Origin: Desulfomicrobium sp.
Lineage (GTDB): Bacteria; Desulfobacterota; Desulfovibrionia; Desulfovibrionales; Desulfomicrobiaceae
NCBI GenBank assembly: GCA_040768745.1
Contig: JAXGMI010000001.1
Span: 544,001 to 608,000 of the forward strand
Direction: 5' to 3'
DNA: 64,000 nt
The notes beneath the pieces are model-generated. The model did no database searches. It was given only the letters and a program-made list of their open reading frames with translations, and had not been told where the DNA came from. The translations under genes and the position numbers were made by a program. Of the stretch, positions 44,107 to 63,093 are shown one piece after another. The stretch's first letter is position 1. Each line of letters begins with the position of its first letter.

Positions 44107-44191
44107 GTCGAAGTGGTGGAATTGGTAGACACGCTATCTTGAGGGGGTAGTGGGGTATCCCGTGGGGGTTCGAGTCCCCCCTTCGACACCA
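44107..44191 (+). tRNA. tRNA-Leu(GAG)
   Basis: Acceptor stem GTCGAAG/CTTCGAC plus ACCA, anticodon arm CTATC-TTGAGGG-GGTAG, long variable arm, GTTCGAGTC T-loop. Confidence 0.96.
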
Positions 44192-44200
44192 GACAAATTC

Positions 44201-44237: not shown

Positions 44238-44238
44238 G

Positions 44239-44533: not shown

Positions 44534-44568
44534 GAGAAAAAAGACGTTTCCACCATTGCGATAGCAGG

Positions 44569-47500
44569 TCATGGTAAACTCTTTTTGAGACCAAACTTGC
44601 GTAATTTCGCGTAGAGCGTAGAGCGTTTGACGCCAAGGATCTGTTCCGCGCCGCCAGGACCGATCACCTTGCCCTGGGTTACCTCCAGCACATGCTTCAT
44701 ATATCGGATCGTCAGTTCCTCCACTGTGGGGAAATCCGCATAGAACGTCTTGAACTCGTTGCTCTCCTCAGGCTGGGACTCCTGTCTGCGCTGCCCCAAC
44801 AGCAGAAGATCCAAAGGGCCTCCAGTATTCAGAATAACTGAACGTTCCACCACGTTTTTCATCTCCCGGATATTGCCATGCCAAGGATAATGCTTGCATT
44901 TTTCGACTACTGTTTGATCCAATGGGGCAAAATGGCGTCCATATCGCGTGCTGAACTGTTCAATAAACAACTTCAGCAGCCCTGGAATGTCATCTTTGCG
45001 CTCACGCAACGGCGGTATCGTGATGGGGATGACGGAAACACGATAGTAAAGATCTTCTCTAAAACGTCCTTCCTGAACCTCATCCCACAAATTTTTGTTC
45101 GTTGCGGCGATCAGGCGGAAATCCGACTCGATATTTCGCGTCCCTCCCACCCGCATGAAAGTATGCTCCTGCAGGACGCGTAGCAACTTTACTTGAAATG
45201 ACAAAGGGATTTCCGCCAGTTCATCGATGAAGAAAGTCCCATTGTTCGCCAGTTCGAACAGGCCAGGCTTCTGCCTGTCAGCTCCGGTAAAAGCGCCTTT
45301 TTCATGGCCGAAAAACTCGCTTTCAAATAGATTTTCCGGGGTGCTGGCAGGGTGGACGGGAATGAAAGCACCTGTTCTGCCACTGAACTCATGAATCCGT
45401 CTGGCCAAGACCTCCTTCCCCACGCCGGTTTCACCAAGAATCAGTATGGTTGCATCGGACGCAGCAGCATGACGGGCCTGTTCCAGCGTTCTACGAAATC
45501 CGACCCCATCGTAATACTTCATGGCGGAATCATATGGCATGGAGAATTCGATATCGCCCATTTGCTGCAGATTACGCGTGCGAACCATGTTCATCCGGGA
45601 CAGAATCTTCAGTTCGCGCTCCATCGCTCGATGAAGACGCTTTTGCGCCTCTGCATCCATGGACACGAACGCGCCGGCAATATGGCTACTCTCCATGAAG
45701 AAACCATGCGTGCCTTCTCCGCAATTGGAAATCCTTAGACGGAGAGAAACCTTTTCCTGCGTGCAGGACAGCAGGCAATCCGGAGTACCGGGATACGCCA
45801 ACTCCTGAAGCCGTGAAGCATACGTCTGGGAGTCAAATTCCTGAGCCTGGACATTGCAGCCAAGTACATACCCCGCCTTGCCGTCCGGAAGTAGCCTACA
45901 CAGGACAGCGCGCTCAGCCCCCATTTCGCGCTGTACGGCATTGAGCAATGCACCTATCTGCGCCTCAACAGGCAGTGCGGGCCCAATATTTCCAATGAGG
46001 TTGAAGCAGCTTTCCAGACAGTCCGCCACCGAAGCCGGAAAAACATGTCCCTGCCATGGCATAAGATGCACAAAAGCATTGGCGGGTTGCAGCGTTGTTG
46101 ATGCAAAATCCGCCTGCGCCGACACCTCCAGCTTTTCGGCCTCTGCAACCCGGCCGCACCGTTTCAGCAGCGGCACAAGAAGCAGGGCGCTTCGGGCGGC
46201 CTCGCGCCTATCTCCACAACTGCGAAACGCCTCATGACTACTACGGAGCAGGCTTATCCCGTTCTCGACATCATCCCCGGCAAGCCGAAGCGCCTTCAGC
46301 CTAAAGGCCATGCCGTGGAGATGCCTGTTCTGTCTGCCAAGCACATTTTCTATTTCTTCATCTAGTCGATAGCCGGGGATGGGGGGCAAGCCCTTCGCCT
46401 CATAACTCGCCAGAAGCTCCAGCACCCATGTCGCCGTGTAGGCAAACCGCCCTATTCCATGTCGAAAACGCGAACGCATGCACTCCATCATGATGCGGTG
46501 CGAAACTTCAAGCTTGTCGGATTGGGCATGATGGAGTGCCAGAGCACGCCAAGCCCAAAGAAAGAGTTTGGGAGAGGATTCGGTATCCACGCAATCAATC
46601 ACGGCGGACAGATACTCCAACCCCTGTTCTGTAATTCCCATCTGCAGAAAATGTACAGCTAGCAAGATCTTCATCCACAGAATTTTATGCCTGTCTCCGC
46701 GTGCCTGCGCTTCGTGCAGGGCACTTTCGCAAATTCCTATACTTTGAGCATACTGGCAAAGTCGGCTTGCTGCCGGAGCCATGTACAACGGATACATTTC
46801 ATTGAAATACATACAGTTGAGCATCTGCGGACAATTATGCGCGAGATCGAAGGCAGAGTAGCACGCACGAAAATCTCCCCGCGCGTAGTAAAGAAAGGAC
46901 AAAAAGTAGCTGACCTGTCCCTCCATGTCGGCATCATCGAGCACTTTGATGGCGTTGAGCCCCTGTTCAAGCAAACTGTTCAGGCTTGTTGGATCTTCCA
47001 CTCCGGAGAGAATTTCCAGGCAGCCTCCCACAAGATTGATCAGAGCCTGGGCCCGCTGATCCCCCAGCATCTTGGCTACGCAGTGCGCCCGTTCCGAGAG
47101 CGCATGCGCCGCAGTCATACACACTCCCAGCGAAAAAGCGTCGCTCTGAGCCATAAGGATTACACTGACATAGTGACGTTTCTCAAGATCGCTCATGCTT
47201 CCATACGGACAGTCTTGCAGGCGGTGCACCAGCAGTTCAAGACAGATTGCCGCCCCGCTAAGATGCGAAGCAACTATCAACCGTTGCAAAAGCGTCTGCA
47301 ACAGGACGCAGGCTTCGAAAACACGCGAGTCGGCAAGCAGGACAAGGGTGCGTCCCGGAAGATCATCCTCGCGCGGGAAATATTTCTTGAATCCGCCGAC
47401 CAGTTCCTGATTGGACGAGGATGCCGCCAGAAGCCAGTGCGTTTGTTCCTCGTCACGTTCAGCAATTCCGAATTCAACCATGTCGTGGAGCAGACTGTTC

Positions 47501-47610
47501 TGCGTTTCGAGTGACAAGCCAAGAAACTGGCTAAGAGAGGCCGTAGTTAGTCCATTCGGAAATTCTCTAAGAAGCAATAGGGTTCGGAACGCGTCGTAGT
47601 TAAATGACAT
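44569..47610 (-). CDS. Large sigma-54 enhancer-binding protein (AAA+ and HTH) with long helical N-terminal region
   Basis: [60 protein letters not shown]. Confidence 0.92.
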
Positions 47611-47629
47611 GACATGGCTCCTTCAGTTT

Positions 47630-47682
47630 TTTCTAAAAACTGGAATTTTGCCAAATTAAGAAAAATTTCTAAATTAAGGAAA
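47630..47682. promoter_or_regulatory. Three tandem 17-bp imperfect palindromes at 18-bp period (candidate upstream activator sites)
   Basis: TTTCTAAAAACTGGAAT (47630), TTGCCAAATTAAGAAAA (47648), TTTCTAAATTAAGGAAA (47666). Confidence 0.55.
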
Positions 47683-47743
47683 CATTTTTTTCAATTTTTT
47701 TATAATATACTATATTTAAAAGATATAATTATTTATTTTCTCT

Positions 47744-47759
47744 TGGAACATTTTTTGCT
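47744..47759 (+). promoter_or_regulatory. sigma-54 promoter of the catabolic operon
   Basis: TGGAACATTTTTTGCT has GG-N10-GC spacing with TTGCT; it follows an AT-rich tract and is divergent from a GAFTGA-containing EBP. Confidence 0.7.
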
Positions 47760-47946
47760 GATTCGAAGGAAAGACCGCGCACGATGTGGCGAGGCCTGAA
47801 ACAGGGCATGCGGTCTCCGAGACATTCGGCTTCTCGGAAAACTGTGGCACGAGATGGCGCCGGGCGAGTCGGCATCACTCGAAACGCAGGTGATAATGGC
47901 TGAAAAATGCTCACCGTCATCCTCAACCCTCAAGGAGTAATGTATT

Positions 47947-48900: not shown

Positions 48901-48912
48901 CCCCCAACAGCG

Positions 48913-48938
48913 ACCGGGGGAGGTGAACCTTCCCCGGT
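48913..48938 (+). other. Intercistronic stem-loop after the tctC-like gene
   Basis: ACCGGGGGAGG-TGAA-CCTTCCCCGGT with no U-tract. Confidence 0.6.
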
Positions 48939-48958
48939 GCCAACAAGGAGCGCGCCGT

Positions 48959-49933
48959 ATGGCAGGACATTATTCCAAAGTGGTGGTTTGCGGCGCCGGG
49001 GTCATGGGGCATTCCCTTGCAGTGCTTCACGCCCGAAGATCCGAAGTCTGGCTGACAGACATCAGCGAACAGGCGCTGCGCCGCGCCGTTCCACTAATAC
49101 GCAGTGCGCTTGAGACCATGAACCGGGCTGGCGCGCTTGACGAGGCCCCGGAAACCGTCATGGCGCGCATCTATTGCTCGACAAAACTGGCCAACTGTCT
49201 GCCGGGTGCGGATTTGGTCGTTGAAGCGATCAGTGAAAACGCCGAAACAAAACGCTCCTTTTTTGCTCAGCTTGTTGACGAAAACGACGGTACCGCCATC
49301 CTGGAGAGCCACACAATTGTTGCCAGCAACACGTCCTCTCTGGACATTTTTGCGCTTGCTCCCGCGCCTCTGAAACGTCGGCTTTATGGGGCACATCATT
49401 TCGTGCCGCCACACATCATTCCGCTGACGGAAATAGCGCAGCCCGCTGACCCGTTGCCCGGGGCCACGGACACGCTTCTGGAGCATTACCGGTCTGTCGG
49501 GGCAGTTCCAGTTCTTCTCGACCGCTTTTGCCCGGGATTCATCATCAACCGTATCCAGACAGCCATCCATCGTGAAATGTTCAAGCTGATTGAAGAAAAA
49601 ATCGTCGACGCACAAAAACTTGATCTCGCCGTCAAGGCCAGTTTGGGAATCCGCATTCCCGTTCTCGGCATCCTGAAACGCCTTGATTTCGCCGGGCTGG
49701 ATATCGTTGCGGGAAACATGACGCGCCTTGGGCTGACTCCTCCCGCGGCCATAAGCAAATTGGTCGCAAAAGGGGATTATGGGGTGAAAACCGGTAGGGG
49801 GTTTTACGATTATACCGACCGCACCACGGAATCCATATTCGAGGAACGCGACAAAGCCATGCTGTCAATACGCAGGGCCATGGAAAATGCCAATCTGCTG
49901 CTGCCGCGGCAGGAAAAGGAGCCATCTCTATGA
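48959..49933 (+). CDS. 3-hydroxyacyl-CoA dehydrogenase-family protein
   Basis: GAGVMG, EAISE, ASNTSS, HFVPPHIIPLTE, PGFIINR, GVKTGRGFY. Confidence 0.88.
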   Translation: MAGHYSKVVVCGAGVMGHSLAVLHARRSEVWLTDISEQALRRAVPLIRSALETMNRAGALDEAPETVMARIYCSTKLANCLPGADLVVEAISENAETKRSFFAQLVDENDGTAILESHTIVASNTSSLDIFALAPAPLKRRLYGAHHFVPPHIIPLTEIAQPADPLPGATDTLLEHYRSVGAVPVLLDRFCPGFIINRIQTAIHREMFKLIEEKIVDAQKLDLAVKASLGIRIPVLGILKRLDFAGLDIVAGNMTRLGLTPPAAISKLVAKGDYGVKTGRGFYDYTDRTTESIFEERDKAMLSIRRAMENANLLLPRQEKEPSL

Positions 49934-50382
49934 CGTACCGTTTTCAGGAACTTATGTTTGGCCTGTTCATGCTTGCTGTTGGCGGAGCTTTGATGCTCCA
50001 CTCGTTTTCCCCACAGTACGCATTGATGGCACAGGACATTCAAACCGGCCCCATGTTCTTCCCGCAAATCATTCTGACCATCTGGATCATTTGTGCCGTG
50101 GCGATGATCATTCGCGCATGGGGTGATGACGCAAAGAAGAAAGTGCCTTTCCAATGGCTGCGGGTTGCCGGAGCCGTCGCCATCATGTCCATGTTTATCT
50201 TCTTTTTCGACAAGATCGGTTACTTCCCTTCTGGCTTCTGCTGCTTTTTTGGCCTTGGCCTGATTCTGGGTCATAAGCATCCGGGACGTTTGCTGCTTGT
50301 CAGCATTGTCTACGCGGGATTCACGGATGTCCTGTTCCGGTGGGGTCTTAAACAGTATCTGCCAACCATGTTCGGTCTGTAG
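49930..50382 (+). CDS. TctB-family small membrane subunit
   Basis: Four TM segments, GPMFFP, terminal F..GL...LP; lies before tctA. Confidence 0.85.
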   Translation: MTYRFQELMFGLFMLAVGGALMLHSFSPQYALMAQDIQTGPMFFPQIILTIWIICAVAMIIRAWGDDAKKKVPFQWLRVAGAVAIMSMFIFFFDKIGYFPSGFCCFFGLGLILGHKHPGRLLLVSIVYAGFTDVLFRWGLKQYLPTMFGL

Positions 50383-50393
50383 GGGGTACAGCC

Positions 50394-51902
50394 ATGCTTG
50401 AATCTTTGGCCTCCGCCTTGCAGATGGTTTTTACGTTCGAAGCCATGCTCTGTCTGGTTGCCGGCACTTTTCTCGGGGTCGTCGTAGGTGCGCTCCCCGG
50501 CTTGGGATCAATACTGGGCATCACGCTCTGCCTGCCGTTCACATTCGGCATGAGCAATGCCGCCGCCATTTCCCTATTGCTTGGAGTCTATGCCGGTTCC
50601 GTATACGGGGGGTGCATATCCGCCGTCCTGGTCAACACTCCGGGCACGCCAGCGTCTGCGGCGACAACCTTTGACGGGTTCCCAATGGCACAAAAAGGCT
50701 TCGCCGAAAAAGCCCTGGGGTGGGCCACGCTGGGTTCTGTCTTTGGAGGCATGTTTTCCTGCGTGGTGCTGGTCATGTGCGCGCCGCAGCTTGCCTCCAT
50801 CGCTATGCTATTCGGACCTCCGGAAACCCTCTGTCTCATCTTCATGGGCATGACCTGCATATGCACCGTCGCGATGGGCGACATCTTCAAAGGGGTTCTT
50901 TCCGGCATGATCGGCCTGTTCTTTGCCAGCGTCGGTCAGGACGTCATGACCGGCGACGAACGTTTCACGTTCGGCTTCTTTCCTCTGGCAAGCGGTTTCG
51001 ATCTTGTCGCCGTGCTGGTTGGGGTCTTCGCCCTCAGCGAAGTCTTTGACCGGATTGATGTCGTAATCCGCCAGCAGATCACCAATATCATCAAATGCAA
51101 CGGGCTCAAAATGCCTTCGCTAAGCGAACTGGATAAATCCCGCTGGCTGCTACTCCTCAAATCCTCCGCTATCGGTTCCTTCATCGGCATTCTGCCGGGA
51201 ACGGGCACTTCGGCAGCGGTTTTTCTCAGCTATGGGGAAGCCCAACGCTCCTCTCCGCGGCGTGAGAACTTCGGCAAGGGCGAGCCTGATGGCATCATAG
51301 CTCCCGAAGCGGCCAACAACGCCGTCACCGGCGGCGCGCTGGTACCTTCACTTGCACTGGGGCTTCCCGGCGATGCCGTTACGGCCGTCATGCTGGCCAC
51401 GCTTATCATCCACGGCATCACTCCGGGAGTCCGCCTGATGCAGGACAGCCCCGACATCGTCTACAGCATGTTCCTGTCCCTGTCTTTGGCGAATCTCCTA
51501 ATAATCCCCTTCGGATGGCTGTGTGCGAAGGGCTTCTCCTACATGCTTAAACTTCCGGAATCCATCCTGCTGCCCATCATCACCCTTCTGTGTCTGCTGG
51601 GAACCTTCGGGGTCCGCAACAGTATGGTGGATCTGTGGACCTGCGTGATCATGGGCGCTTTCGGCCTGTTCATGCGTTATTTCAAAATGCCGCCTGCGCC
51701 GCTGGTCATCGGACTTGTACTCGGCCCGCTGTTCGAACTCAGTCTGCGTCAGACCTATCTGCTGAAACAAGGAGAAATGAGCCGAACCCTGACAGAGCAT
51801 CCCATTGCGCTGTTCCTCTTTATTGTGGCCGTCCTCATGCTGGTCTTCCCGATGCTTCGAAGACTGTGGAAAAGAATTAATGTCAATATATCCCATGCAT
51901 AA
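50394..51902 (+). CDS. TctA-family large permease
   Basis: GALPGLG, YGG.ISAVLVNTPGTP, PEAANNA, LGLPGD, GLVLGP. Confidence 0.93.
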   Translation: MLESLASALQMVFTFEAMLCLVAGTFLGVVVGALPGLGSILGITLCLPFTFGMSNAAAISLLLGVYAGSVYGGCISAVLVNTPGTPASAATTFDGFPMAQKGFAEKALGWATLGSVFGGMFSCVVLVMCAPQLASIAMLFGPPETLCLIFMGMTCICTVAMGDIFKGVLSGMIGLFFASVGQDVMTGDERFTFGFFPLASGFDLVAVLVGVFALSEVFDRIDVVIRQQITNIIKCNGLKMPSLSELDKSRWLLLLKSSAIGSFIGILPGTGTSAAVFLSYGEAQRSSPRRENFGKGEPDGIIAPEAANNAVTGGALVPSLALGLPGDAVTAVMLATLIIHGITPGVRLMQDSPDIVYSMFLSLSLANLLIIPFGWLCAKGFSYMLKLPESILLPIITLLCLLGTFGVRNSMVDLWTCVIMGAFGLFMRYFKMPPAPLVIGLVLGPLFELSLRQTYLLKQGEMSRTLTEHPIALFLFIVAVLMLVFPMLRRLWKRINVNISHA

Positions 51903-51927
51903 CAACTCTAACAGAGGTGAATAACAT

Positions 51928-52707
51928 ATGAATCTCAATGATAAAGTAACTATTATAACCGGAGGAGGACAGGGGATCGGACGTGCGCTTTCCCTTGGGT
52001 TCGCTGGTTATGGCGCAACTGTGATCGTAGCCGACATCAATGAACAGGGAACGCAAGGAACCGTCGACATAATCCGCAAGGAAGGTGGAAAGGCGCAAGG
52101 TGTTCACTTGGACGTCACAGACGAGGCCTCTGTTCAGGCACTCTTTAAAGTTGCTGTCGAAACCTTTGGCGGTGTGGACATCGTTATCAACAACAGCGGC
52201 GTTGCAGGACCCAAAGGCCAGACGGAATCGGTGACCCTGGACGACTGGCGACAGGCCAACTCCATCAACGTGGACGGCATGTTCCTTATGTGCAAGCACG
52301 CGATCCCGGTACTGCGAAACCGAGGCAAGGGGGTCATTCTTAACGTCTCATCCGTATCCGCCAAACGCCCGCTGATAGAACGCGCAAATTACTGCGCAGC
52401 CAAGGCCGCCGTCATAGGCCTCACACGTTCCCTGGCACTTGAGTGCGGCCAGTGGAATATTCGGGTCAACGCCATTTGCCCCGGCGCTGTTGAAGGGCCG
52501 CGGCAAGATGCCATCCTGCGTCATGCAGCGGCAGCCGCTGGGATCAGCTTTGAGGAAGCCGCAGCCCGCAAAAAGAGTAATTCCCCCCTCAACTCGTTTG
52601 TTCCGCCGTCACACATCGCGGAGGTAGCGGCCTTTCTCTGTTCGGACAAAGCATCTTCAATGACCGGTCAAGACATCAACATTTCCGCAGGCGCATGGAT
52701 GTGCTGA
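51928..52707 (+). CDS. Classical SDR oxidoreductase (NAD-preferring)
   Basis: TGGGQGIG, acidic residue in VADI, NNSG, YCAAK, VNAICPG. Confidence 0.92.
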   Translation: MNLNDKVTIITGGGQGIGRALSLGFAGYGATVIVADINEQGTQGTVDIIRKEGGKAQGVHLDVTDEASVQALFKVAVETFGGVDIVINNSGVAGPKGQTESVTLDDWRQANSINVDGMFLMCKHAIPVLRNRGKGVILNVSSVSAKRPLIERANYCAAKAAVIGLTRSLALECGQWNIRVNAICPGAVEGPRQDAILRHAAAAAGISFEEAAARKKSNSPLNSFVPPSHIAEVAAFLCSDKASSMTGQDINISAGAWMC

Positions 52708-52761
52708 AGCGCAGGTTGCAAACATTCAATTGAAATAGAAACATATCAAGGAGACTCTCGA

Positions 52762-54345: not shown

Positions 54346-54474
54346 TACCCGGACGGGACGAGACCATTTGAAAGGTGCATGAGGAGTAGTGATGCTATCC
54401 GGATAGATAAAACCTATCATACTCTTCACTAGACAAGAATGAAAAGCATCTAAAAAAACTCGAGGTCATTTGTT

Positions 54475-56151
54475 ATGGCTATGTTGAAGCAGCTTCGCAA
54501 AGGAAGCGAAATTCTGATGGAAATGTTTAAGGGACATGGTGTCACACATGTATTCTATATGGAAGCAGTACTTCGTTACACCATGCTGGAGATGGAGAAG
54601 GTAGGCATTAAGCGCGTTTTGTGTCACTCAGAAAAAGGGGCTGCGTACATGGCAGACGGCTATGCACGGGCCACAGGCAGACCCGGAGTGTGTCTCGCTC
54701 AATCTGTTGGTGCCGCCAATCTGGCTGCTGGATTACAGGACGCATACCTTTCGCATTCTCCAGTTTTGGCGATAACTGGATGCAAGCCTTCAGCTGAAAA
54801 ACATCGAAATACATACCAAGAACTTGATCATTGGCCTCTTTATCAACCCGTTACCAAGTATAATGTATCCATCCAGACAACAGACGAGTTGCCTCAAGCA
54901 CTCAGACAAGCCTTTAGAGAGGCTATGACCGGCGCGCCCGGACCTGTCCATCTGGAGTTTCCTCAGCATCAGGGTATGCATATAGAATTGGGGGAAACTG
55001 AAGGTGGAACGACTGTTGACAAGCGATTCGCCCAATTGCCCCCGTTCAGACCATACCCCGATCCTGCAGATTTGGCCGAGGTTGTTAAGCAAATCTATGA
55101 CGCCGAGCGTCCTGTCTTGGTAATCGGCCTTGGCGCTGTCCTCTCTGGTGCGGGGCCTGAATTAGCCGCCATCATCGATAGATTAGGCATCCCTTTTGCG
55201 ACGACCATGGACGGAAAGGGCCTTGTTCCCGACACGCATCCTCTTTGTGTCGGCCCCATTGGCGGGTATGGCCGCAAGTGCGCAAACGCTATCCTGGCTG
55301 AAGCCGATCTCGTGGTGTTCATCGGGTCTGGCTTGGACGATCAGGTGACTAACAAATGGTCCCTGCCCTCTCAGGACACCCACGTTATCCAAATCGATAT
55401 CGATCCGTCGGAACTGGGGCGCAATTACATGAATAGCGCCAGCATAATGGCAGATGCAAAAGCTGCGGCATCGTCCATCCTGCCATTGCTCACGGGAGCG
55501 CACAAAAGTGTTGCCTGGGCGCAGAAGGCCACGGCAAGTGTCAACGCATGGCGGCAGGCTCAAGCAGAAATCAGGGCAAGCGACAGTTGCCCTATTAGTG
55601 CGGAACGATTGTGCCATGAAGTGCAACAAGCCTTGCCTGCAAATGCCGCACTCGTGGCGGACACAGGATTTTCCGCTATCTGGGCGGGTTCGTTTATCGA
55701 GTTGACACAGCAAGGGCAACGCTTTTTCCGACCTGGCGGCGGTTCTCTTGGTTGGGGGTTCCCTGCATCACTGGGAGTGAAATGCGGCATGCCGGAAAGA
55801 CCCGTTGTATGTTTTACCGGCGACGGCGCCTTCTGGTATCATCTAAATGAACTGGAAACAGCTGTTCGACATAAAATCAATACTGTGACAGTATTGAACA
55901 ATAATGGCGGACTTGGACAATGCTATAGAGGAATAAAAGCTCTTTATAACGGAATAACAGGGCGATCAGAGGATCTTTATGAATATTCGAATGTGAATTT
56001 CGCGGAGCTTGCTGAAAAAATGGGCGCATTTGCTATTCGAGTTAAAAACGCCAAAGACATTGCCCCTGCGTTACGCGAAGCGCTTTCGGCGAATAAGCCT
56101 GCTGTAGTAGAGGTTCTTACAAATATAGCAGGAGACCCACAAGAATATTAA
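54475..56151 (+). CDS. ThDP-dependent enzyme (acetolactate-synthase-like fold, unknown reaction)
   Basis: HSEKGAAYMADGYAR (catalytic Glu), PGPVHL, GDGAF..NNN ThDP/Mg motif. Confidence 0.88.
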   Translation: MAMLKQLRKGSEILMEMFKGHGVTHVFYMEAVLRYTMLEMEKVGIKRVLCHSEKGAAYMADGYARATGRPGVCLAQSVGAANLAAGLQDAYLSHSPVLAITGCKPSAEKHRNTYQELDHWPLYQPVTKYNVSIQTTDELPQALRQAFREAMTGAPGPVHLEFPQHQGMHIELGETEGGTTVDKRFAQLPPFRPYPDPADLAEVVKQIYDAERPVLVIGLGAVLSGAGPELAAIIDRLGIPFATTMDGKGLVPDTHPLCVGPIGGYGRKCANAILAEADLVVFIGSGLDDQVTNKWSLPSQDTHVIQIDIDPSELGRNYMNSASIMADAKAAASSILPLLTGAHKSVAWAQKATASVNAWRQAQAEIRASDSCPISAERLCHEVQQALPANAALVADTGFSAIWAGSFIELTQQGQRFFRPGGGSLGWGFPASLGVKCGMPERPVVCFTGDGAFWYHLNELETAVRHKINTVTVLNNNGGLGQCYRGIKALYNGITGRSEDLYEYSNVNFAELAEKMGAFAIRVKNAKDIAPALREALSANKPAVVEVLTNIAGDPQEY

Positions 56152-56197
56152 GATAAAACGCGAAAAATTGCACACTATCCTGAAATAGTCGCAGCTA

Positions 56198-56441
56198 GGC
56201 AAGCTTACACAGAATTCGTACATTGAACGGTCCAACAAGACCTACAGGGAAGAGGTCCTGGACTTCTACCTGTTCAAATCCCTCACGGAAGTGAAGGAAA
56301 TTACGGAGAATTGGCTGAGGCAGTACAACGAGGAGCGGCCCTATGAGTCTCTTGGCAATTTGACCCCGGCAGAGTTCCTCATGAAAAATTCACCCAAGGA
56401 AGTCTCTCCTTTTGGAGAGCACTAACTTGGGGAGGTTTACA
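56198..56441 (+). pseudogene. IS3-family transposase C-terminal remnant with right end
   Basis: 56198-56425 translates GKLTQNSYIERSNKTYREEVLDFYLFKSL.EV..ITENW..QYNEERP..SLGNLTP; ends GGGGAGGTTTACA, an IS3-type CA terminus. Confidence 0.85.
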
Positions 56442-57355
56442 ACACATTTTACCACGGAGATTCTTATGCGTCTTCTCACCTTGGCAAGTATTGTCTTCAG
56501 TTTGTTGTTTATGGCGCCTCATTCAGGGCAGGCGGCAATCACATTGAAAGCAGCGTATACCAATGTTGAAGAACATCCTCAGGCAGCTGGCTTTGCGCTT
56601 TTCAAAAAGCTTGTGGAAGAACGCAGTAACGGTGAGTTGAAAATCGAGCTGTATGGAAGCGGAAAATTTGGTTATGCAGAAGCTATCATGCAAGGGCTGC
56701 AGATGGGTGTTCTTGCCATAGGCGGTGAATCTCCTGGCAACTACTCTGTCTATGATCCGAGCATAATGGTGCTTGACCTTCCCTATCTGTTTCCGGACTA
56801 CGCATCAGCAGAACGCTTTTTCCTCACCAAGGAAGCCTTTGAGCTGACAAAAGCCTTTGAAAGCAAGGGGGTAACACTGCTCGGCTTTATGCACCTTGGT
56901 TACAGAACCATTTTCAGCAACCGTCCCATCACCTCTCTGGAGGATGCCAAAGGGCTTAAGATACGCACAACCGCATCCAAGGTTGAAATCGAAACAATCA
57001 AGGCGTTTGGCATGAATCCCACGCCGATGTCCTGGGGGGAAGTCTACACCTCGCTTCAACAGAAGACCATTGACGGGATCAATACTGACATCAACTTGGC
57101 GTGGGTAAACAAGTTCTATGAAGTATGCAAGTATGTTACGCTTAGCAATAACAACTACTGCCCACTTATGATTTTTGTATCCAACAGCCATTGGAATAAG
57201 CTTTCTCCTGAGCATCAGAAGATTGTAAAGGAATCCTTTGATGAAGGTCTGGCTTTGCAGCGAAAGCTTATTTTTGAAAATGCCAAAACTCTGTAAGCGC
57301 TCAGACATCCGCATTTTCCACGGGCGTCCCTGACCTGCGATAGAAGCAGGAGTCT

Positions 57356-58909
57356 TTACTTTTTGCGAGGCTTGGGCTTGGGAAGGCTTGGGAGAAGGGA
57401 TTTGTCCACGTGCTGCGGCATGAGCGCCCGCATGTCTTCCGTGGTCCGTGCTGCGGGGAAGCGTTCGAAGAGGAATTTCAGGTAGGCTTGGGGCTCGATC
57501 TCGTTGGCCTTGGCGGTTTCCACCAGGGAAAAGAGCATGGCGCTGGCGTCAGCGCCCTTGGGGACTCCGGCAAAGAGCCAGTTCTTCCGGCCCAGGGCCA
57601 CGGGGCGGATGGCGTTCTCGGCCGTGTTGTTGTCGGGCGTGAGCAATCCGCAGTCCACGTAGCGCACGGCCCGGCTCCACTGGTTGCGGGCGTAGGTCAT
57701 GGCCTGTCCGAGCAGGCTTTTGGGCGGGACGTGGTCGATGCGCTCGTCGAGGATGGCCCGTATTGCGTTGAGGATGGGAACTGCTTGCTCCAAGCGCATT
57801 GGTACCTTTTCCTCCGGCTCCAGTTCTTTGATATTGTGCTCGACCTTGTAGAGCAGACCGATGAGATCCAGGATTTCCTTGGCCGTCCCGTGCGTGATCT
57901 TCTTTGAGGTCGCTTTCTGGACGTCCATGAACTTACGACGGATGTGGGCCATGCAACCGACATGGATGATGCCGTCCGATTCGCCGAGAGCCTGGTACCC
58001 GGAGTAGCCGTCGGTCTGGATGTAGCCCTTGTACTCGCCCAGATACTCCTTGGGGACAGAGCCCGACCTGGTCGGGTCGTAGCAATAGACCACGGTCGGC
58101 CGATCTGGATTGCCGCCACGGAAGAGCCACAGATACGATGTGGAAGTATCGGATCGCCCTGGTTCGTTGAGTACTTGCAGTGTGGTTTCGTCCATGTTGA
58201 TGACCGGGCCGGAGCGGATTTCCGCCTGGAACAGTTCATGGAGCGGCTCCAGCGCCTTGGCCACGGCCATGGCCCATCCGGACATGGAATGACGCGGGAT
58301 GTCCACGCCCAAGCGGGCAAACTGCTTGGTCTGGCGGTAGAACGGCATGGCATCGACGAACTTGGCGGTAATGACCTGGGCCAAGAGGCTCGGCGTGGCG
58401 ATGCCCTTGGGGATGATCTGCGGCGGCATGGGTGCGATACGCACCACCGGCATACCCTCCTCTCCGTCGCAGGCCGGACAGGCGTACTTCGGGCGGATAT
58501 GGCGTTCTACCCGCATGACGGCCGGGACGTAATCGAGCTTTTCGGAGACTTCTTCGCCGATGCGCTTCAGGCAGGCTCCGCAAGAGCAGAGTTTCTGGTC
58601 TTCGGGCAGATCGTGAACGACTTCGATGCGCGGCAGGTGATCCGGCAGAGGCTTGCGTCCCCGCTTGGCTCTGGTGTGGGCCGGGACTTCGACGACGGGC
58701 ATTTCCGCAGGCTTCGCCTCTGCGATCCTAACCAAGGGCAGAGGTAGGATGCCTTGGTAGAGGTCTTTGGATTTCTCGGACTTGGGAGCATACAGGGCGG
58801 CCTGCAACAGGGCCACGCGATCCTGGAGATGGCGGTTTTGCTGGTAGTAATCCCAGACCAGATGCTTGAGTTGCCCGATGTCATCGGGAAGGTTCTCGAT
58901 GTCTCCCAT
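57356..58909 (-). CDS. tnpC: IS66 transposase TnpC
   Basis: Zinc finger (CSCG..CPAC), MDET, QTDGY, CMAHIRRKF, DNNTAENAIRPVALGRKNWLF. Start uncertain. Confidence 0.93.
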   Translation of the reverse strand: MGDIENLPDDIGQLKHLVWDYYQQNRHLQDRVALLQAALYAPKSEKSKDLYQGILPLPLVRIAEAKPAEMPVVEVPAHTRAKRGRKPLPDHLPRIEVVHDLPEDQKLCSCGACLKRIGEEVSEKLDYVPAVMRVERHIRPKYACPACDGEEGMPVVRIAPMPPQIIPKGIATPSLLAQVITAKFVDAMPFYRQTKQFARLGVDIPRHSMSGWAMAVAKALEPLHELFQAEIRSGPVINMDETTLQVLNEPGRSDTSTSYLWLFRGGNPDRPTVVYCYDPTRSGSVPKEYLGEYKGYIQTDGYSGYQALGESDGIIHVGCMAHIRRKFMDVQKATSKKITHGTAKEILDLIGLLYKVEHNIKELEPEEKVPMRLEQAVPILNAIRAILDERIDHVPPKSLLGQAMTYARNQWSRAVRYVDCGLLTPDNNTAENAIRPVALGRKNWLFAGVPKGADASAMLFSLVETAKANEIEPQAYLKFLFERFPAARTTEDMRALMPQHVDKSLLPSLPKPKPRKK

Positions 58910-58956
58910 GCAAGAATATTTAGCAATAATATCTTGAAATAGCAAGATATTTGTCA

Positions 58957-59307
58957 CTATAGAACCGATCTGTAGTACAACCGCTGATGTGCTCCTTGCG
59001 GCGTGAGCGTGAGTCCATCGAGGAGCCAGCCAAGCTGTTGCGGGGTGATATTCATGACCTCTGACGCCCGCTCGGGCCAGCAGAATCGATGCTTCTCCAG
59101 GCGCTTGTGCCAGAGGCAGAAGCCGTTGCGATCCCAGTACAGCACCTTGATGGCGTCGCGCCTGCGGTTGCAGAAGACAAAGAGGTGTCCGGAAAAGGGG
59201 TCCAGATCGAGAATGCCCTGGGCCGTCATGCTCAGTCTGTCGATGCCGGCGCGCATGTCCGTGGTACCGGGGGCGAGATAGACCTTGGCCGCGGGCACCC
59301 TCAGCAT
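58957..59307 (-). CDS. tnpB: IS66 accessory protein TnpB
   Basis: TDMRAGID, LFVFCNRRRD, LYWDRNGF, KRLE. Confidence 0.93.
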   Translation of the reverse strand: MLRVPAAKVYLAPGTTDMRAGIDRLSMTAQGILDLDPFSGHLFVFCNRRRDAIKVLYWDRNGFCLWHKRLEKHRFCWPERASEVMNITPQQLGWLLDGLTLTPQGAHQRLYYRSVL

Positions 59308-59627
59308 CGGGCTTCCAGCACGGTCAGCAGCTTGGTCAGCGTGGCTTCGTCGAAGTCAGCCGGGATATCGAGAGCGTAACGCTTACCGACCAGCAGGCCA
59401 ATGGACGGGGCTTTCGAGGCGAACGTAAGCGGCAACGCCACAAGAGCAGGAATTGAGGTGGATTCGCCACCAGAAGATGATCGGGACTTTGTTATCCAGT
59501 ATTGGAACGTGCTCAAAGCCAAACCATTTTCGCGACAGTATCGGGTCTTGCCGAGGCCACTCTCCCGCCATTGCCGGACATGCGCCATCCAGCGTGCCGC
59601 GTGATTCTGTGCAAATTGAGATTTCAT
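59301..59627 (-). CDS. tnpA: IS66 accessory protein TnpA
   Basis: W..HV.QWRESGL...YCRENGL..STF.YW; GGAGGT RBS. Confidence 0.88.
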   Translation of the reverse strand: MKSQFAQNHAARWMAHVRQWRESGLGKTRYCRENGLALSTFQYWITKSRSSSGGESTSIPALVALPLTFASKAPSIGLLVGKRYALDIPADFDEATLTKLLTVLEARC

Positions 59628-59902
59628 GAAGACCTCCTTGAATTGGAGGCCCATTATCTCACATGAAAAATTTATGGATAGATGCGGACAGGTGAGCGCT
59701 TACAAAACTCTCCGAAAAAAGATGGAAGAAGCGGGTGTGAAGTTCATTGATCTGCCTGACGCCGAACTTGCCCGTTGGAAGGATGCAACCAAAACTGTGG
59801 GTGAGAAGGTTAAGGATATCATTCCTCTGGAAAAACAGGAGCGGATTAAGAGCCTTATTAAGTAACTTCGTACAGAGAGATACCATCAACCAAACGAGGC
59901 TC

Positions 59903-59956
59903 AATCGATCAGGAAAGCTTGTCTCTGACAGCCAGAGGCTTTCCTGATCGATTTTT
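59903..59956 (+). terminator. Stem-loop / partial terminator between dctP and dctQ
   Basis: Perfect 16-bp arms AATCGATCAGGAAAGC / GCTTTCCTGATCGATT followed by a T-rich tail. Confidence 0.65.
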
Positions 59957-59984
59957 ATATTTTTGGATACCCTCTGGAGGAATC

Positions 59985-60470
59985 ATGAAAGTTATTGAGC
60001 GTCTCGAGGAATACATTCCCATCATTTTCCTCTTCATCCTTTTTATTGTGCTCATTGTACAGACTTTTTTCCGCTACGTCCTTTCTAACTCTCTGCTCTG
60101 GCCGGAAGAGATCGCCCGGTATGCTTTTATTGCCCTTGTCTACTTTGGCTCAGGCGTTTCTGCGAGGGAAGGGCGCCACCTTGAAATCAGTGTGTCGAAG
60201 ACTTTATTAGGAGAAAAAATTAGGCGTATTCTGGTCGTTCTGACTTCCGTCATCACCACCGGCTATTGTATTCTCATGACTATCTGGGGTTTTGACATGG
60301 CAATGTTCGTCAAGGAAAGCCAACAAGTTTCCGCATCTATTCCTATTCCTACTTATATATTTTATCTATGTATCCCTATTGGAATGATTTGGATGGCAAT
60401 AAGAACTATAACATTTGGAAAAAAAGATCTTCGTGCTCACCATACGACAGAAGACATACCAATCATATAG
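59985..60470 (+). CDS. dctQ: TRAP small permease DctQ
   Basis: FFRYVL..SL.WPEEIARY, H-containing loop, four TM segments; GGAGG RBS. Confidence 0.9.
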   Translation: MKVIERLEEYIPIIFLFILFIVLIVQTFFRYVLSNSLLWPEEIARYAFIALVYFGSGVSAREGRHLEISVSKTLLGEKIRRILVVLTSVITTGYCILMTIWGFDMAMFVKESQQVSASIPIPTYIFYLCIPIGMIWMAIRTITFGKKDLRAHHTTEDIPII

Positions 60471-60502
60471 TATTTTATTTACTATAGACAAGGAACTTCA
60501 TC

Positions 60503-61783
60503 ATGGAATTGCCGATTATAGTCAGTGCTATTTCATTAGTTTTTTTTCTCATAATAAGTGTACCCATCGGTGTTGCTATGGGTCTGTGCGTTGCGCTAGG
60601 GTTGCTTGTGGGCGATCTACCCCCTCAACTCATGATGCAAAAAATGTACATGGCACTGGACAGCTTTCCATTGCTGGCAGTACCTTTATTTATTCTTTCC
60701 GGTGAAATTATGCAGAAAGGTTCCATGGCCAACTCTCTGCTTAAACTTTCTCGCTCGCTGGTTGGCCACATCCATGGTGGCATGGCACATATATCTGTAC
60801 TTACAGCTTTATTTTATGGCGCCCTGTGCGGCTCTGCCCCTGCCACGGTTGCTGCTGTTGGCGGGATTATGATCCCAGCCATGGAAAAGGAAAAATATCC
60901 CCTGCGTTATGCTACTGCCGTCAACACCACGGCAGGCTGTCTGGGCGTGCTTATCCCTCCCAGCGTTCCCCTCATAATTTACGGTACGCAGGCAAACATT
61001 TCAATCAGTGATCTGTTTATTGCCGGTATTATGCCCGGGATATTAGTAGGCGTATTGTTAATTATCATGTGTTATGTCGTATGCAAAATCAAAAAGTACG
61101 GCATAACTCAGCCCAAGGCAACTTTCAAGGATATAATTCTTGGTTTATCTAGTGCTGGCTATGCACTTGTTGTGCCGGTGGTTGTGTTGGGTGGTATTTA
61201 TGGTGGTATTGTCACGCCGACAGAGGCCGGTGCCATTGCAGCCTTTTATGCCTTGATTGTCGAGGTTTTTATTACGCGCTCCCTAAATGCCAAAGGCATT
61301 GTTGATGTCTTTTGGAGTACAGTTGTTTCCACGGCTACCATCTTCTTTATTGTAGCTCCAGCCACGGCGCTTGGTCAGTTGCTCCTTATCTACAACGTTC
61401 CCGACGTCGTGACCGGACTTATGGCAGGGATTATCGACAATAAGTATCTCCTGTTGTCTTTGATCATTGCCATCCTGCTGTTTACGGGAACATTCATGGA
61501 CACGATTTCCAACATCGTCTTGTTTACTCCTCTCTTTATGCCTGCGGTGCTTAAGGCCGGTGTTGATCCCGTGCATTTCGGAGTCATCATGATTGTCGCA
61601 CTTGCCATTGGCTTCCTGACGCCGCCTGTTGGTGTAAACCTTTTTGTCGGGTGTGGAATCAGCAAGCTGAAAATTGAAGTACTGTCTGTTGCTGTCCTAC
61701 CATTTATCGCAGTACTTGCCGTAGCCCTGTTTACTATTGCCTTTATTCCGTCTATTTCTTTGATGCTTGTGCCAGCACGCTAA
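60503..61783 (+). CDS. dctM: TRAP large permease DctM
   Basis: SFPLLAVPLFILSG, IPPSVP, TPTEA, DPVHFG, TPPVG. Confidence 0.94.
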   Translation: MELPIIVSAISLVFFLIISVPIGVAMGLCVALGLLVGDLPPQLMMQKMYMALDSFPLLAVPLFILSGEIMQKGSMANSLLKLSRSLVGHIHGGMAHISVLTALFYGALCGSAPATVAAVGGIMIPAMEKEKYPLRYATAVNTTAGCLGVLIPPSVPLIIYGTQANISISDLFIAGIMPGILVGVLLIIMCYVVCKIKKYGITQPKATFKDIILGLSSAGYALVVPVVVLGGIYGGIVTPTEAGAIAAFYALIVEVFITRSLNAKGIVDVFWSTVVSTATIFFIVAPATALGQLLLIYNVPDVVTGLMAGIIDNKYLLLSLIIAILLFTGTFMDTISNIVLFTPLFMPAVLKAGVDPVHFGVIMIVALAIGFLTPPVGVNLFVGCGISKLKIEVLSVAVLPFIAVLAVALFTIAFIPSISLMLVPAR

Positions 61784-61830
61784 CCTTTTGAGCAAAGGTC
61801 CTGTCTCACCAGCTTGCATATGGAGGCACC

Positions 61831-63093
61831 ATGGATTTATTTGACTACATCATCTCTGGTGCGCGGGTAATAAATCCCGCAACCTGCCTCGATGATGTTA
61901 TGGATATTGCCATTTCCGGCAAGTTGATTGCCCATATGGACAAAACTATTACCAATAATGATCCGCGCTTTGCCACAACAACGAAAATTATTGACGCGTC
62001 ATCTTGCCTTGTTACCCCCGGATGGGTTGATCTTCACTGCCATTTTTATCCTGATGACTATTATGGACTGATGCCTGACGATCCAGGAGTTCTGTCTGGG
62101 TGTACGTCTATTGTGGATGGCGGCAGTGCCGGGATGTTGACCTATAGTTATTTTTTCAACCGGTATATGGACAGGTCAAAGAGTAAAACCTACGCTTTTT
62201 TGCTGCATCATCCTATCGGACAGTTCTTTCAAGAAGAATGCTGGAAAAATGTTTTTGTCAATGCAAAAGCAACAGCAGAGTTTGTCAAGCAGACTCCTCG
62301 AATTGTTGGCCTAAAGGACAAGTTAACTGCCGACTTTGCTTGGTATCAGGGGATTGAGGGCGTGCGCCGTGCAATTGATATCGCTCATCTCTCCGAAAAG
62401 CCGTATGCAGTACATCTTGGCACCTCTACTCATCTCGTCACTCCCGACAAAAATGCTTCCGCCGATGCCGTTGAAAATGCTGTCCGAAGCTGTACGCTCG
62501 AACTGCTTGCCAGTCTTCGCAAGGGGGATATTATCTTTCATGCTTTTACAGGAAAGCTTGGTGGCCTTTTTACGCCCGATGGAGTATATGATCAGGCTGT
62601 GAGGGACGCTCTGAAACGAGGAGTTTTGTTGGATGCAAGTCTGGGCCGTGCCAATTTTGATTTAAACGCGTACACAATTGCTTTTAACAGAGGAATTATC
62701 CCGCACATCATCAGCTCGGATCTTGTGCAATTTGGGCTTCAAGATATTGTTTTCAATATGGGCGCAATCCTTTCTCGGTTTATGGGAAATGGACTTTCTT
62801 TATCAGAAATTATCGCCAGAGCAACACTGCATCCTGCAAAGGCCGTATGTCTTGCTCCAGGGACAGGCGAACTTTATGCTGGCGGCCCGGCAGATATAAC
62901 CGTCACATCTATGGAAGAAGGAGAGTTCATATTTACGGACAAAATGAACGGGACAGAGTTTACCAGCACGCATTTTTTCCGTCCCCGAATAAGCTTTGTC
63001 GACGGCATTCCGTACAAGGTTCATCACCATGGCCTGTCGGGTACTTCCCCATGGACAGGATCGATTTTGCCAGAAGAATATCCTTTCTGTTGA
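61831..63093 (+). CDS. Dihydroorotase-like amidohydrolase/deacetylase (COG3964-like)
   Basis: PGWVDLHCH (HxH), DGGSAG, VGLK, HAFTG, ISSD, PADIT. Confidence 0.82.
   Translation: MDLFDYIISGARVINPATCLDDVMDIAISGKLIAHMDKTITNNDPRFATTTKIIDASSCLVTPGWVDLHCHFYPDDYYGLMPDDPGVLSGCTSIVDGGSAGMLTYSYFFNRYMDRSKSKTYAFLLHHPIGQFFQEECWKNVFVNAKATAEFVKQTPRIVGLKDKLTADFAWYQGIEGVRRAIDIAHLSEKPYAVHLGTSTHLVTPDKNASADAVENAVRSCTLELLASLRKGDIIFHAFTGKLGGLFTPDGVYDQAVRDALKRGVLLDASLGRANFDLNAYTIAFNRGIIPHIISSDLVQFGLQDIVFNMGAILSRFMGNGLSLSEIIARATLHPAKAVCLAPGTGELYAGGPADITVTSMEEGEFIFTDKMNGTEFTSTHFFRPRISFVDGIPYKVHHHGLSGTSPWTGSILPEEYPFC

What the first reader, a model, noticed from the sequence alone, without database searches (positions are those of the whole stretch)
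44569..63093. tRNA-adjacent sigma-54 catabolic region for an unknown substrate
Seen: directly after tRNA-Leu the DNA becomes AT-richer and IS-scarred. It carries a dedicated EBP divergent from co-oriented genes for a TTT transporter, HAD-family dehydrogenase, SDR, CoA-acylating (methyl)malonate-semialdehyde dehydrogenase, ThDP enzyme, TRAP transporter and amidohydrolase. Established: MmsA/IolA makes acetyl- or propionyl-CoA from (methyl)malonate semialdehyde, and TTT/TRAP systems import organic acids. Inference: an imported hydroxy-acid or N-/O-acyl acid is deacylated, oxidised twice, cleaved or decarboxylated by the ThDP enzyme to a semialdehyde, and captured as acyl-CoA. I recognise no described pathway with this gene set: iolB/C/E, valine-pathway and pyrimidine-reduction genes are not seen in the window, nor is a CoA ligase or transferase.
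Basis: partly seen in the sequence, partly recalled or inferred. Interest (0 to 1): 0.7.

Follow-up and report, generated by a model that had tools for sequence, protein, structure and literature searches.

The report
Mobile thiamine-enzyme cluster, likely sulfonate breakdown
A mobile, sigma-54-type gene cluster in a sulfate-reducing bacterium pairs two importers and four known enzyme types with a vitamin-B1 enzyme from an unstudied branch, and likely breaks down a small sulfonated acid such as sulfolactate or a cysteate derivative by an undescribed route, although one of its two importers is interrupted by a transposon.

Summary
The cluster is real. After tRNA-Leu, GC falls from 0.63 to 0.52. 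A sigma-54 activator faces tctC-HAD-tctB-tctA-SDR-MMSDH-ThDP-dctPQM-amidohydrolase.

It is not one linear pathway. Activator, SDR, MMSDH and ThDP enzyme recur in two other Desulfovibrionales genomes, one with only TTT+HAD and one with only TRAP+amidohydrolase. So this is a core with two feeder modules.

Three contexts point to sulfonates. Six of the 10 closest DctP relatives sit beside a cysteate sulfo-lyase homologue. A ThDP-SDR-HAD-TRAP run continues into ackA and xsc in two genomes of another family. The sister MMSDHs sit beside an isethionate/DHPS sulfite-lyase-type radical enzyme.

Best reading (about 0.4): sulfolactate and an acyl-cysteate-type compound converge on sulfopyruvate, which the ThDP enzyme decarboxylates to sulfoacetaldehyde. 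The role of MMSDH is the weak link, and carboxylate look-alikes ending in malonate semialdehyde remain open. The ThDP enzyme forms its own branch and passes no curated model. Seven literature searches found no description. This scan earlier noted similar cassettes on other DNA (e1-5186431, e1-977698). No substrate is shown.

The parts
44107..44191 (+). tRNA-Leu(GAG), left border of the low-GC island
   Evidence: GC step
44569..47610 (-). 1013-aa sigma-54 enhancer-binding protein; AAA+ domain 705-951 with Walker A, GAFTGA and Walker B intact; about 680-aa N-terminal region without Pfam match
   Evidence: full-length 54% relative in L183; Atlas lead only, score 0.87
47630..47681 (+). three imperfect 16-bp palindromes, candidate activator binding sites (inferred)
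   Evidence: one similar site in L183; pattern was chosen by eye, no chance control
47744..47759 (+). sigma-54 -24/-12 promoter TGGAAC-N5-TTGCT
   Evidence: same motif at the same place in L183
47947..48900 (+). tctC, TTT solute-binding protein (feeder module T)
   Evidence: PF03401; 65% in L010
48959..49933 (+). 3-hydroxyacyl-CoA-dehydrogenase-fold enzyme, Ser123/His147/Glu158/Asn197 retained (module T)
   Evidence: best model FHMPC dehydrogenase 171 bits, cut-off 500
49930..50382 (+). tctB (module T)
50394..51902 (+). tctA (module T)
51928..52707 (+). short-chain dehydrogenase with K146-R147, R152 and R192 around the catalytic S142/Y155/K159 (core)
   Evidence: R152 in 93 of 94, R192 in 94 of 94 homologues
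52762..54345 (+). MMSDH-family CoA-acylating aldehyde dehydrogenase, K127/R304/C305 retained (core)
54475..56151 (+). ThDP enzyme of an unstudied branch; catalytic E53 and GDG..NN motif present (core)
56200..56420 (+). about 200-bp insertion whose frame reads like the end of an IS3-type transposase (family name recalled, not tool-confirmed)
   Evidence: gap is 315 bp here against 111 bp in L183; translation
56466..57292 (+). dctP, 5' part (module R), truncated
57293..59703 (-). complete IS66 (tnpA, tnpB, transposase) with 8-bp target duplication; eight other copies of 2.1 kb or more at 98.8% identity or higher in the genome
59704..59865 (+). dctP, 3' part
59985..60470 (+). dctQ (module R)
60503..61783 (+). 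dctM (module R)
61831..63093 (+). amidohydrolase/deacetylase-family metallohydrolase with His-x-His, Lys, His, His, Asp motifs (module R)
   Evidence: (PRK09237 263 bits, cut-off 371); 67% in L183
63350..64000 (-). IS1634-type element at the right border, continues beyond the window

Best explanation
This is a sigma-54-type catabolic island made of a conserved core (activator, SDR, ThDP enzyme, MMSDH) and two feeder modules, and it likely converts C3 sulfonated acids through 3-sulfopyruvate to sulfoacetaldehyde. Shown: the genes, the promoter motif, the core-plus-module layout and the IS66 break in dctP. Inferred, step by step: (1) TTT imports sulfolactate, and SDR and HAD oxidise its two enantiomers to 3-sulfopyruvate; (2) TRAP imports an N- or O-acylated cysteate/sulfolactate-type compound, which the amidohydrolase deacylates into the same pool (cysteate would need a housekeeping aminotransferase); (3) the ThDP enzyme decarboxylates sulfopyruvate to sulfoacetaldehyde, doing the job of ComDE with an unrelated three-domain fold; (4) the aldehyde is desulfonated by Xsc encoded elsewhere in the host, or oxidised by the MMSDH-type enzyme to sulfoacetyl-CoA with NADH gain, sulfoacetaldehyde being the sulfonate look-alike of malonate semialdehyde. 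In this strain module R is probably crippled.
For: Modularity: L183 has activator, SDR, MMSDH, ThDP, dctPQM and amidohydrolase at 54-89% identity and no TTT/HAD (no HAD-clade hit in G239 at E<=1e-60). L010 has activator, MMSDH (5' part deleted), ThDP, tctC-HAD-tctB-tctA and SDR at 42-71% and no TRAP/amidohydrolase within 10 kb. Sulfonate contexts: (a) of the 10 closest DctP loci in 146 genomes of the order, 6 lie beside a CuyA homologue; the host's nearest TRAP paralogue sits with CuyA (525 bits, cut-off 450), CuyB (272, cut-off 190) and RidA and groups with our DctP at 99/98; our DctP has the Ser and Asn that bind the sulfonate in IseP and lacks the Lys seen at that place in a solved C4-dicarboxylate binder. 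(b) In G720 and G458 a co-oriented ThDP(51%)-SDR(46-50%)-HAD(40%)-TRAP run continues to ackA and an Xsc homologue; the G720 protein scores 736 bits, cut-off 676. (c) The three 68-70% MMSDH relatives follow TTT and an IseG/HpsG-family radical enzyme (1289-1291 bits, cut-off 1000, for the 2 of 3 scanned). The SDR carries four basic residues at its active site, as for a dianion. Distant SDR and HAD relatives pair with beta-keto acid cleavage enzymes (L174, L262, L266), as expected for dehydrogenases of free beta-hydroxy anions. Precedent: a TTT plus two dehydrogenases oxidise sulfolactate via sulfopyruvate (PMC10507020 passages); sulfopyruvate to sulfoacetaldehyde to Xsc is known (PMC6278857 passages). 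Chemical argument (inference): sulfopyruvate cannot beta-decarboxylate, so it needs a ThDP step, whereas oxaloacetate does not.
Against: No enzyme or binding protein was assayed. The DctP relatives are only 39-46% identical, and 4 of 10 have no CuyA beside them. Tyr153 of IseP is not kept. The TRAP in the xsc-linked operons is a different DctP (24-26%). MMSDH passes the curated cut-off and keeps the same two basic residues as a homologue next to IolD, which fits malonate semialdehyde as well or better. In a host with Xsc, oxidising sulfoacetaldehyde would forgo sulfite, and no CoA ligase is in the cluster. Host-level Xsc is common (13 of 27 in genus g16, 7 of 24 in the host genus), so it is weak support. 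G362 has three ThDP paralogues but no Xsc or IseG over cut-off. Other members of the ThDP branch sit with beta-hydroxyacid dehydrogenases, an IlvD dehydratase, a hydantoinase or a nucleobase permease and show no sulfonate marker. No aminotransferase or sulfite exporter is in the cluster.
Confidence: 0.42

Rival explanations
1. Carboxylate look-alike: a malate- or aspartate-type dicarboxylate, possibly 3-substituted (tartrate, 3-methylmalate, N-acyl-aspartate), is oxidised to an oxaloacetate-type oxo-acid, decarboxylated by the ThDP enzyme to malonate, methylmalonate or tartronate semialdehyde, and turned into acetyl-, propionyl- or glycolyl-CoA by MMSDH.
For: MMSDH is a member of its family with anion-binding residues intact; 55-60% relatives sit with Fe-alcohol dehydrogenases or IolD. 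An acyl-CoA product needs no extra ligase. The dianion SDR motif fits malate too. ThDP relatives sit with semialdehyde-reductase-like beta-hydroxyacid dehydrogenases.
Against: Redundant with central metabolism for oxaloacetate (established knowledge). DctP groups with cysteate-locus binders. Does not explain the xsc-linked operons.
Confidence: 0.2
2. [quoted passage not shown]
For: A 43% SDR relative sits with BKACE, a sugar ABC transporter and an aldehyde oxidoreductase, like the SDR+BKACE deoxyribonate route (10.1101/205583 passages). HAD relatives also pair with BKACE. Uses MMSDH in its normal role.
Against: No enzyme for the second aldehyde in the cluster. The SDR looks built for two anionic groups. 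The sulfonate contexts are unexplained.
Confidence: 0.15
3. A larger, unrecognised hydroxy-sulfo-acid (C4-C5, for example 3-sulfomalate or 3,4-dihydroxy-5-sulfopentanoate) is the substrate, and its cleavage gives both a sulfonated aldehyde for Xsc or IseG and a malonate-semialdehyde-type fragment for MMSDH.
For: It alone explains the link to both xsc and MMSDH. G720 and G458 carry an MMSDH elsewhere. The radical enzyme beside sister MMSDHs keeps the three sulfonate-binding residues of IseG but has Phe680 changed to Val, room for a larger substrate.
Against: I know no natural source of such compounds (recall). The cysteate-like DctP suggests a small ligand.
Confidence: 0.13
4. The ThDP enzyme is a glyoxylate-carboligase-like ligase making tartronate semialdehyde, which MMSDH or neighbouring reductases process.
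For: Glyoxylate carboligase ranks among the best solved relatives; tartronate-semialdehyde-reductase-like genes sit beside 3 relatives.
Against: 118 bits or less against the model's cut-off is not reached (268 against 791); it keeps the catalytic Glu that glyoxylate carboligase replaces with Val; SDR and HAD would have no role.
Confidence: 0.05

Closest known systems
Sulfolactate route via 3-sulfopyruvate and sulfoacetaldehyde to Xsc (Roseovarius nubinhibens; PMC6278857 passages) and the slcHFG-slcC-comC unit of Taurinivorans muris (PMC10507020 passages)
   Same: TTT importer plus two NAD-type dehydrogenases; proposed intermediates sulfopyruvate and sulfoacetaldehyde; xsc-ackA in the same run in G720 and G458.
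   Different: Second dehydrogenase is HAD-fold, not ComC; the decarboxylase would be a three-domain AHAS-like enzyme, not two-subunit ComDE (recalled); no SuyAB; an MMSDH and a TRAP+amidohydrolase module are added; orthology of the SDR to SlcC was not tested.
Cysteate pathway CuyB-CuyA-RidA (PMC11193023 passages)
   Same: Our TRAP system is the sister of TRAP systems found beside CuyA in sulfate reducers.
   Different: No CuyA or CuyB in the island; in Bilophila the neighbouring transporter is an SDF symporter, so the ligand of this TRAP clade is itself inferred.
myo-Inositol IolD/IolA pair
   Same: ThDP C-C cleaving enzyme co-encoded with MMSDH.
   Different: The ThDP enzyme does not group with IolD; no iolB/C/E/G.
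Oxidative deoxyribonate pathway, SDR + BKACE (10.1101/205583 passages)
   Same: SDR oxidation of a free beta-hydroxy acid followed by C-C cleavage.
   Different: ThDP enzyme and MMSDH in place of BKACE, thiolase and glycerate kinase.
Sulfoacetaldehyde acetyltransferase Xsc, AHAS, glyoxylate carboligase, PRK06112 family
   Same: Same three-domain ThDP fold, 25-31% identity.
   Different: Separate clade; all curated cut-offs missed by a wide margin; distinct loops (FxxEAxLR, QSVG, RNxYQE, GxYxR, DQ).

Membership tests
MMSDH (TIGR01722) | score above curated cut-off | tested here: met
   540 against 448.5
MMSDH (TIGR01722) | catalytic Cys and two basic substrate-binding residues (positions recalled from B. 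subtilis work) | tested here: met
   C305, R304 and K127 in place of Arg; invariant in 13 of 13 aligned
MMSDH (TIGR01722) | oxidative decarboxylation of (methyl)malonate semialdehyde | not testable with these tools
   needs assay
Xsc (TIGR03457) | score above cut-off and grouping with Xsc | tested here: not met
   252 against 676; separate clade
Biosynthetic AHAS large subunit (TIGR00118) | score above cut-off; RFDDR motif; ilvN partner | tested here: not met
   341 against 538; motif reads GLDDQ; no small subunit in the cluster
Glyoxylate carboligase | Val in place of the catalytic Glu; score above cut-off | tested here: not met
   Glu53 kept; 268 against 791
IolD / inositol pathway | IolD clade membership and iolB/C/E neighbours | tested here: not met
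PRK06112 ThDP subfamily | score above cut-off | tested here: not met
   352 against 673
Sulfolactate pathway (Slc/Com) | TTT importer co-encoded with two dehydrogenases | tested here: met
Sulfolactate pathway (Slc/Com) | ComC-type second dehydrogenase and ComDE or SuyAB | tested here: not met
   no such family among the cluster's proteins
Sulfolactate pathway (Slc/Com) | SDR orthologous to SlcC | not tested
   no SlcC sequence was at hand; only the best 25 of 217 NCBIfam hits were shown
Sulfonate-binding TRAP proteins (IseP-like) | two Arg plus Ser95, Asn98, Tyr153 | tested here: inconclusive
   both Arg, Ser and Asn kept, Tyr is Leu; the Asn also occurs in two host paralogues of unknown role
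FHMPC dehydrogenase / carnitine dehydrogenase / 3-hydroxybutyryl-CoA dehydrogenase | score above cut-off | tested here: not met
   all 19 models far below cut-off
tRNA-integrated genomic island | tRNA border and composition shift | tested here: met
   L010 copy beside tRNA-Ala, G239 copy beside an integrase and tRNA-Ser
tRNA-integrated genomic island | own integrase and att duplication | tested here: not met

The most novel reading that the evidence does not exclude
A widespread, unstudied branch of three-domain ThDP enzymes is a convergently evolved sulfopyruvate (or larger sulfo-oxo-acid) decarboxylase, and an MMSDH sub-branch has been recruited to sulfonate metabolism. Together they give gut and digester sulfate reducers an undescribed, mobile route for sulfolactate and acyl-cysteate, with an alternative radical-enzyme version (TTT + IseG-like enzyme + the same MMSDH branch) pointing to a sulfonate substrate not yet recognised.
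Probability: 0.3. Interest if true: 0.72.

Novelty: new variant of a known kind. Interest (0 to 1): 0.52.

Why it matters
Organosulfonates are a source of sulfite and H2S for gut and digester sulfate reducers, and several of their routes are still open (PMC12890257, section 4). If the reading holds, the cluster names a new decarboxylase family (nearly all of about 8,000 scored candidates passed E<=1e-60, the top 120 at 51% identity or more), a new use of MMSDH, and a second transporter-hydrolase entry for acylated sulfonates. Each step can be tested with five soluble proteins and two binding proteins. If a carboxylate rival holds, it is still an undescribed route to malonate semialdehyde, of narrower interest.

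Tried and rejected
1) Single linear five-enzyme pathway: rejected by L183 and L010. 2) Host-level Xsc or IseG as support for sulfonates: 4 of 5 ThDP-clade genomes of the order have one, but Xsc is in 24 of 171 order genomes and about half of genus g16, so I discounted it. 3) Allantoin/glyoxylate reading of L200: the hydrolases resemble allantoinase (below cut-off) and allantoate amidohydrolase (above one subfamily cut-off), but the gene between them and the ThDP enzyme does not read like a cupin; dropped. 4) SuyAB reading of L203 and HpsN reading of L261: gene sizes and families fit, but NCBIfam gave only galactarate dehydratase (far below cut-off) and HisD; not counted. The TauD-family gene in L190 is an annotation only. 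5) HAD-seeded collection scans: of 160 loci, only L010 was in the tight clade; 8 others had any ThDP gene nearby, 6 of them at 44% identity or more. 6) RNA-library contigs X13 and X14 (one study) cover tctC to dctP and hardly cover dctQ-dctM-amidohydrolase, where two DNA runs do. This would fit a polar IS66, but it is one study, contigs only and may include DNA, so it is not evidence. No contig skipped IS66 in the 4 runs laid, so no IS-free allele was seen. 7) ESM Atlas gave only generic names. 8) The AlphaFold model (pLDDT 89) confirms the fold; no fold search was obtained, so the pocket was not compared. 9) One wrong-frame row (PRK06112_L058) in the tree was ignored. 10) PMC12017989 holds none of the amidohydrolase PDB ids searched; the deacetylase activity of this family on acetylated hydroxy acids is recalled, not checked. 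11) Pantothenate and carnitine routes were considered and dropped: the first needs an aldehyde dehydrogenase step missing in L183, the second gives no ThDP substrate. Supplements of the papers were not read; gene tables there could list this cluster.
Full report
OBSERVATION. The window is G000:C1:544001-608000 of a 3.09-Mb genome. I place the host among sulfate reducers of the Desulfovibrionales by inference: it has an AprA 74.5% identical to that of a named Desulfovibrio record, and the closest gene relatives come from that group. Behind pgk-tpi-secG and tRNA-Leu, GC drops from 0.626 to 0.523. A -24/-12 site lies at 47744, one of 3 such motifs in the window, and is conserved in L183. An IS1634-type element closes the region. 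No integrase or att duplication was found.

DISTRIBUTION. The cluster is rare and foreign to the host family. The HAD clade was found in 4 of 401 and the ThDP enzyme in 5 of 401 genomes of the order, counting G000, and in 0 of 34 of the host's family. The other copies also lie beside tRNA genes, one with an integrase. Near-identical DNA occurs in digester, wastewater, manure and sludge runs of several studies (16 of 24 listed rows hold half the words or more; 6 may be the source).

A CORE AND TWO FEEDERS. L183 (G239) has activator, SDR, MMSDH, ThDP enzyme, intact dctPQM and amidohydrolase at 54-89% identity, without TTT or HAD, and a second sigma-54 motif in front of the ThDP gene. L010 (counted once with the G298 hit) has activator, MMSDH, ThDP, tctC-HAD-tctB-tctA and SDR, without TRAP or amidohydrolase in 10 kb; a deletion there removes the activator's start, the promoter and most of MMSDH, and may be an assembly error. 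Equal longest-contig lengths in the homologue tables suggest six more HAD/SDR/ThDP pairings; I could not fetch those contigs, so this is a hint. The window is the union of both layouts. HAD and the amidohydrolase are therefore alternative entries, not consecutive steps.

THE ENZYMES. The ThDP enzyme misses every curated cut-off (best 352 against 673). Its best solved relatives are AHAS I, BbmA and glyoxylate carboligase. In a 26-row FastTree, 16 rows form a fully supported clade apart from Xsc, IolD, AHAS and PRK06112 (one wrong-frame row ignored). It keeps the catalytic Glu53 and has conserved E30, R34, K54, R111, H119 and R267; I read these as acid-base groups for aldehyde release and a pocket for an anionic tail, which is inference from sequence position only. 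The SDR has R152 and R192 in 93 and 94 of 94 homologues and K146-R147 in about two thirds; Arg three before the catalytic Tyr marks anion-binding SDRs (recalled). HAD is nearest to FHMPC dehydrogenase but far below cut-off. Distant SDR and HAD relatives pair with beta-keto acid cleavage enzymes, which suggests free beta-hydroxy anions rather than CoA esters. MMSDH is a true family member on its own sub-branch.

WHY SULFONATES. First, the TRAP. I fetched all 10 non-self loci found with the intact DctP in 146 order genomes: 6 lie beside a CuyA homologue, 3 in activator-ThDP-TRAP units with a different ThDP family (2 with an SDR), and 1 beside only an unknown gene that accompanies the CuyA loci. 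The host's nearest paralogue sits with CuyA and CuyB above cut-off. Second, in G720 and G458 (one genus, so one event) our ThDP-SDR-HAD trio runs on to ackA and xsc. Third, of the five MMSDH relatives at 68% or more in 401 genomes, three follow TTT and an IseG/HpsG-family radical enzyme, one is L183 and one sits with a TRAP and an amidase. That radical enzyme keeps the Arg, Gln and Arg that bind the sulfonate in IseG (PMC6453916, Results read). These three lines involve different genes and lineages, but each rests on 40-70% identity, where substrates can change.

AGAINST. MMSDH fits malonate semialdehyde at least as well, and burning sulfoacetaldehyde to sulfoacetyl-CoA is hard to justify in a host with Xsc. 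Host-level Xsc is common. Of the 15 other members of the ThDP clade whose surroundings I read, only the two xsc-linked ones show a confirmed sulfonate gene nearby; others sit with beta-hydroxyacid dehydrogenases, IlvD, hydantoinase, BKACE or a permease. Cysteate, sulfolactate, sulfopyruvate and sulfoacetaldehyde mirror aspartate, malate, oxaloacetate and malonate semialdehyde, so sequence cannot separate the two series. I favour the sulfur series because of the contexts and because only it needs a ThDP step.

MECHANISM. Likely: sulfolactate enters by TTT and is oxidised by SDR and HAD; an acylated cysteate- or sulfolactate-type compound enters by TRAP and is deacylated; both reach sulfopyruvate; the ThDP enzyme gives sulfoacetaldehyde; Xsc or MMSDH takes it on. 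All steps are inferred. I give 0.42 to this, about 0.55 to some sulfonate, and about 0.7 to the general scheme of dehydrogenase, ThDP cleavage and acylating oxidation.

LITERATURE. Searches returned no paper describing this gene set; the library lacks most subscription papers, and I judged from listings and abstract starts. Read: PMC6453916 (outline, Results), PMC12890257 (outline, section 4); passages only of PMC11668362, PMC13335735, PMC12814064, PMC6278857, PMC11193023, PMC10507020, PMC12421959 and 10.1101/205583; PMC12017989 gave no hit. No supplements were read. ComDE architecture, the B. subtilis MMSDH arginines, aminotransferase activity on cysteate and the amidohydrolase family's deacetylase activity are recalled. 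Earlier scan notes: e1-977698 (seen) describes a hydrolase-aminotransferase-ThDP-MMSDH cassette and suggested the amino-acid version of the route; e1-5186431 (seen, after my note) reaches the same sulfolactate reading for another cassette. Neither was checked, and neither counts as support.

VERDICT. A real, mobile, modular catabolic cluster with an unstudied ThDP enzyme, probably for sulfonates, with one importer broken in this strain. New variant of a known kind; interest 0.52.

Noticed in passing
L227:3494-10776, L228, L229 (G055, G144, G155): TTT + IseG/HpsG-family glycyl radical enzyme with an altered pocket (Phe680 to Val, a Tyr to Arg change) + MMSDH, with a GntR gene; no activase motif found within 20 kb by a narrow pattern. 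Possibly a new radical lyase or dehydratase making malonate semialdehyde; worth its own study.
   Followed up: partly
L258:6242-14340 (G000:C2:642242-650340): Host cysteate locus: TRAP, an unknown 420-aa gene, RidA, CuyA, CuyB; its dctP appears cut short next to IS-like ORFs. The 420-aa gene has no NCBIfam hit at 1e-12 and recurs in 6 of the 10 sister-DctP loci.
   Followed up: partly
L241:8341-17852 (G000:C1:1270341-1279852): Host locus with Xsc, a 465-aa gene of unassigned family, alanine dehydrogenase and a TRAP system, like a taurine pathway.
   Followed up: partly
L268-L270: Activator + a different uncharacterised ThDP family + (SDR) + TRAP of the same DctP clade in three genus-g16 genomes.
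   Followed up: partly
L201:978-17008 (G720) and L202: Region with four different ThDP enzymes, acetate kinase, three SDRs and Zn-alcohol dehydrogenases; two of the ThDP enzymes form a further unnamed clade.
   Followed up: partly
L185, L186, L187, L175 (G362): One genome carries three paralogues of the ThDP branch with TTT or TRAP systems, beta-hydroxyacid dehydrogenases, IlvD or a nucleobase permease, plus a distant TTT-amidohydrolase-ligase-ThDP-HAD unit.
   Followed up: partly
L001:8168-13283 (about 9-14 kb past the island): Thiamine salvage genes (thiM, thiE, thiD, NMT1-type ABC) at host GC; probably unrelated to the island.
   Followed up: no
L261:3722-10930: Haloarchaeal plasmid locus with SSS transporter, a 43% SDR relative, a HisD-family gene and a HAD relative, reminiscent of DHPS clusters.
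   Followed up: partly
window 44192-44568: The gap after the tRNA holds short pieces repeated at four other places in the genome.
   Followed up: no
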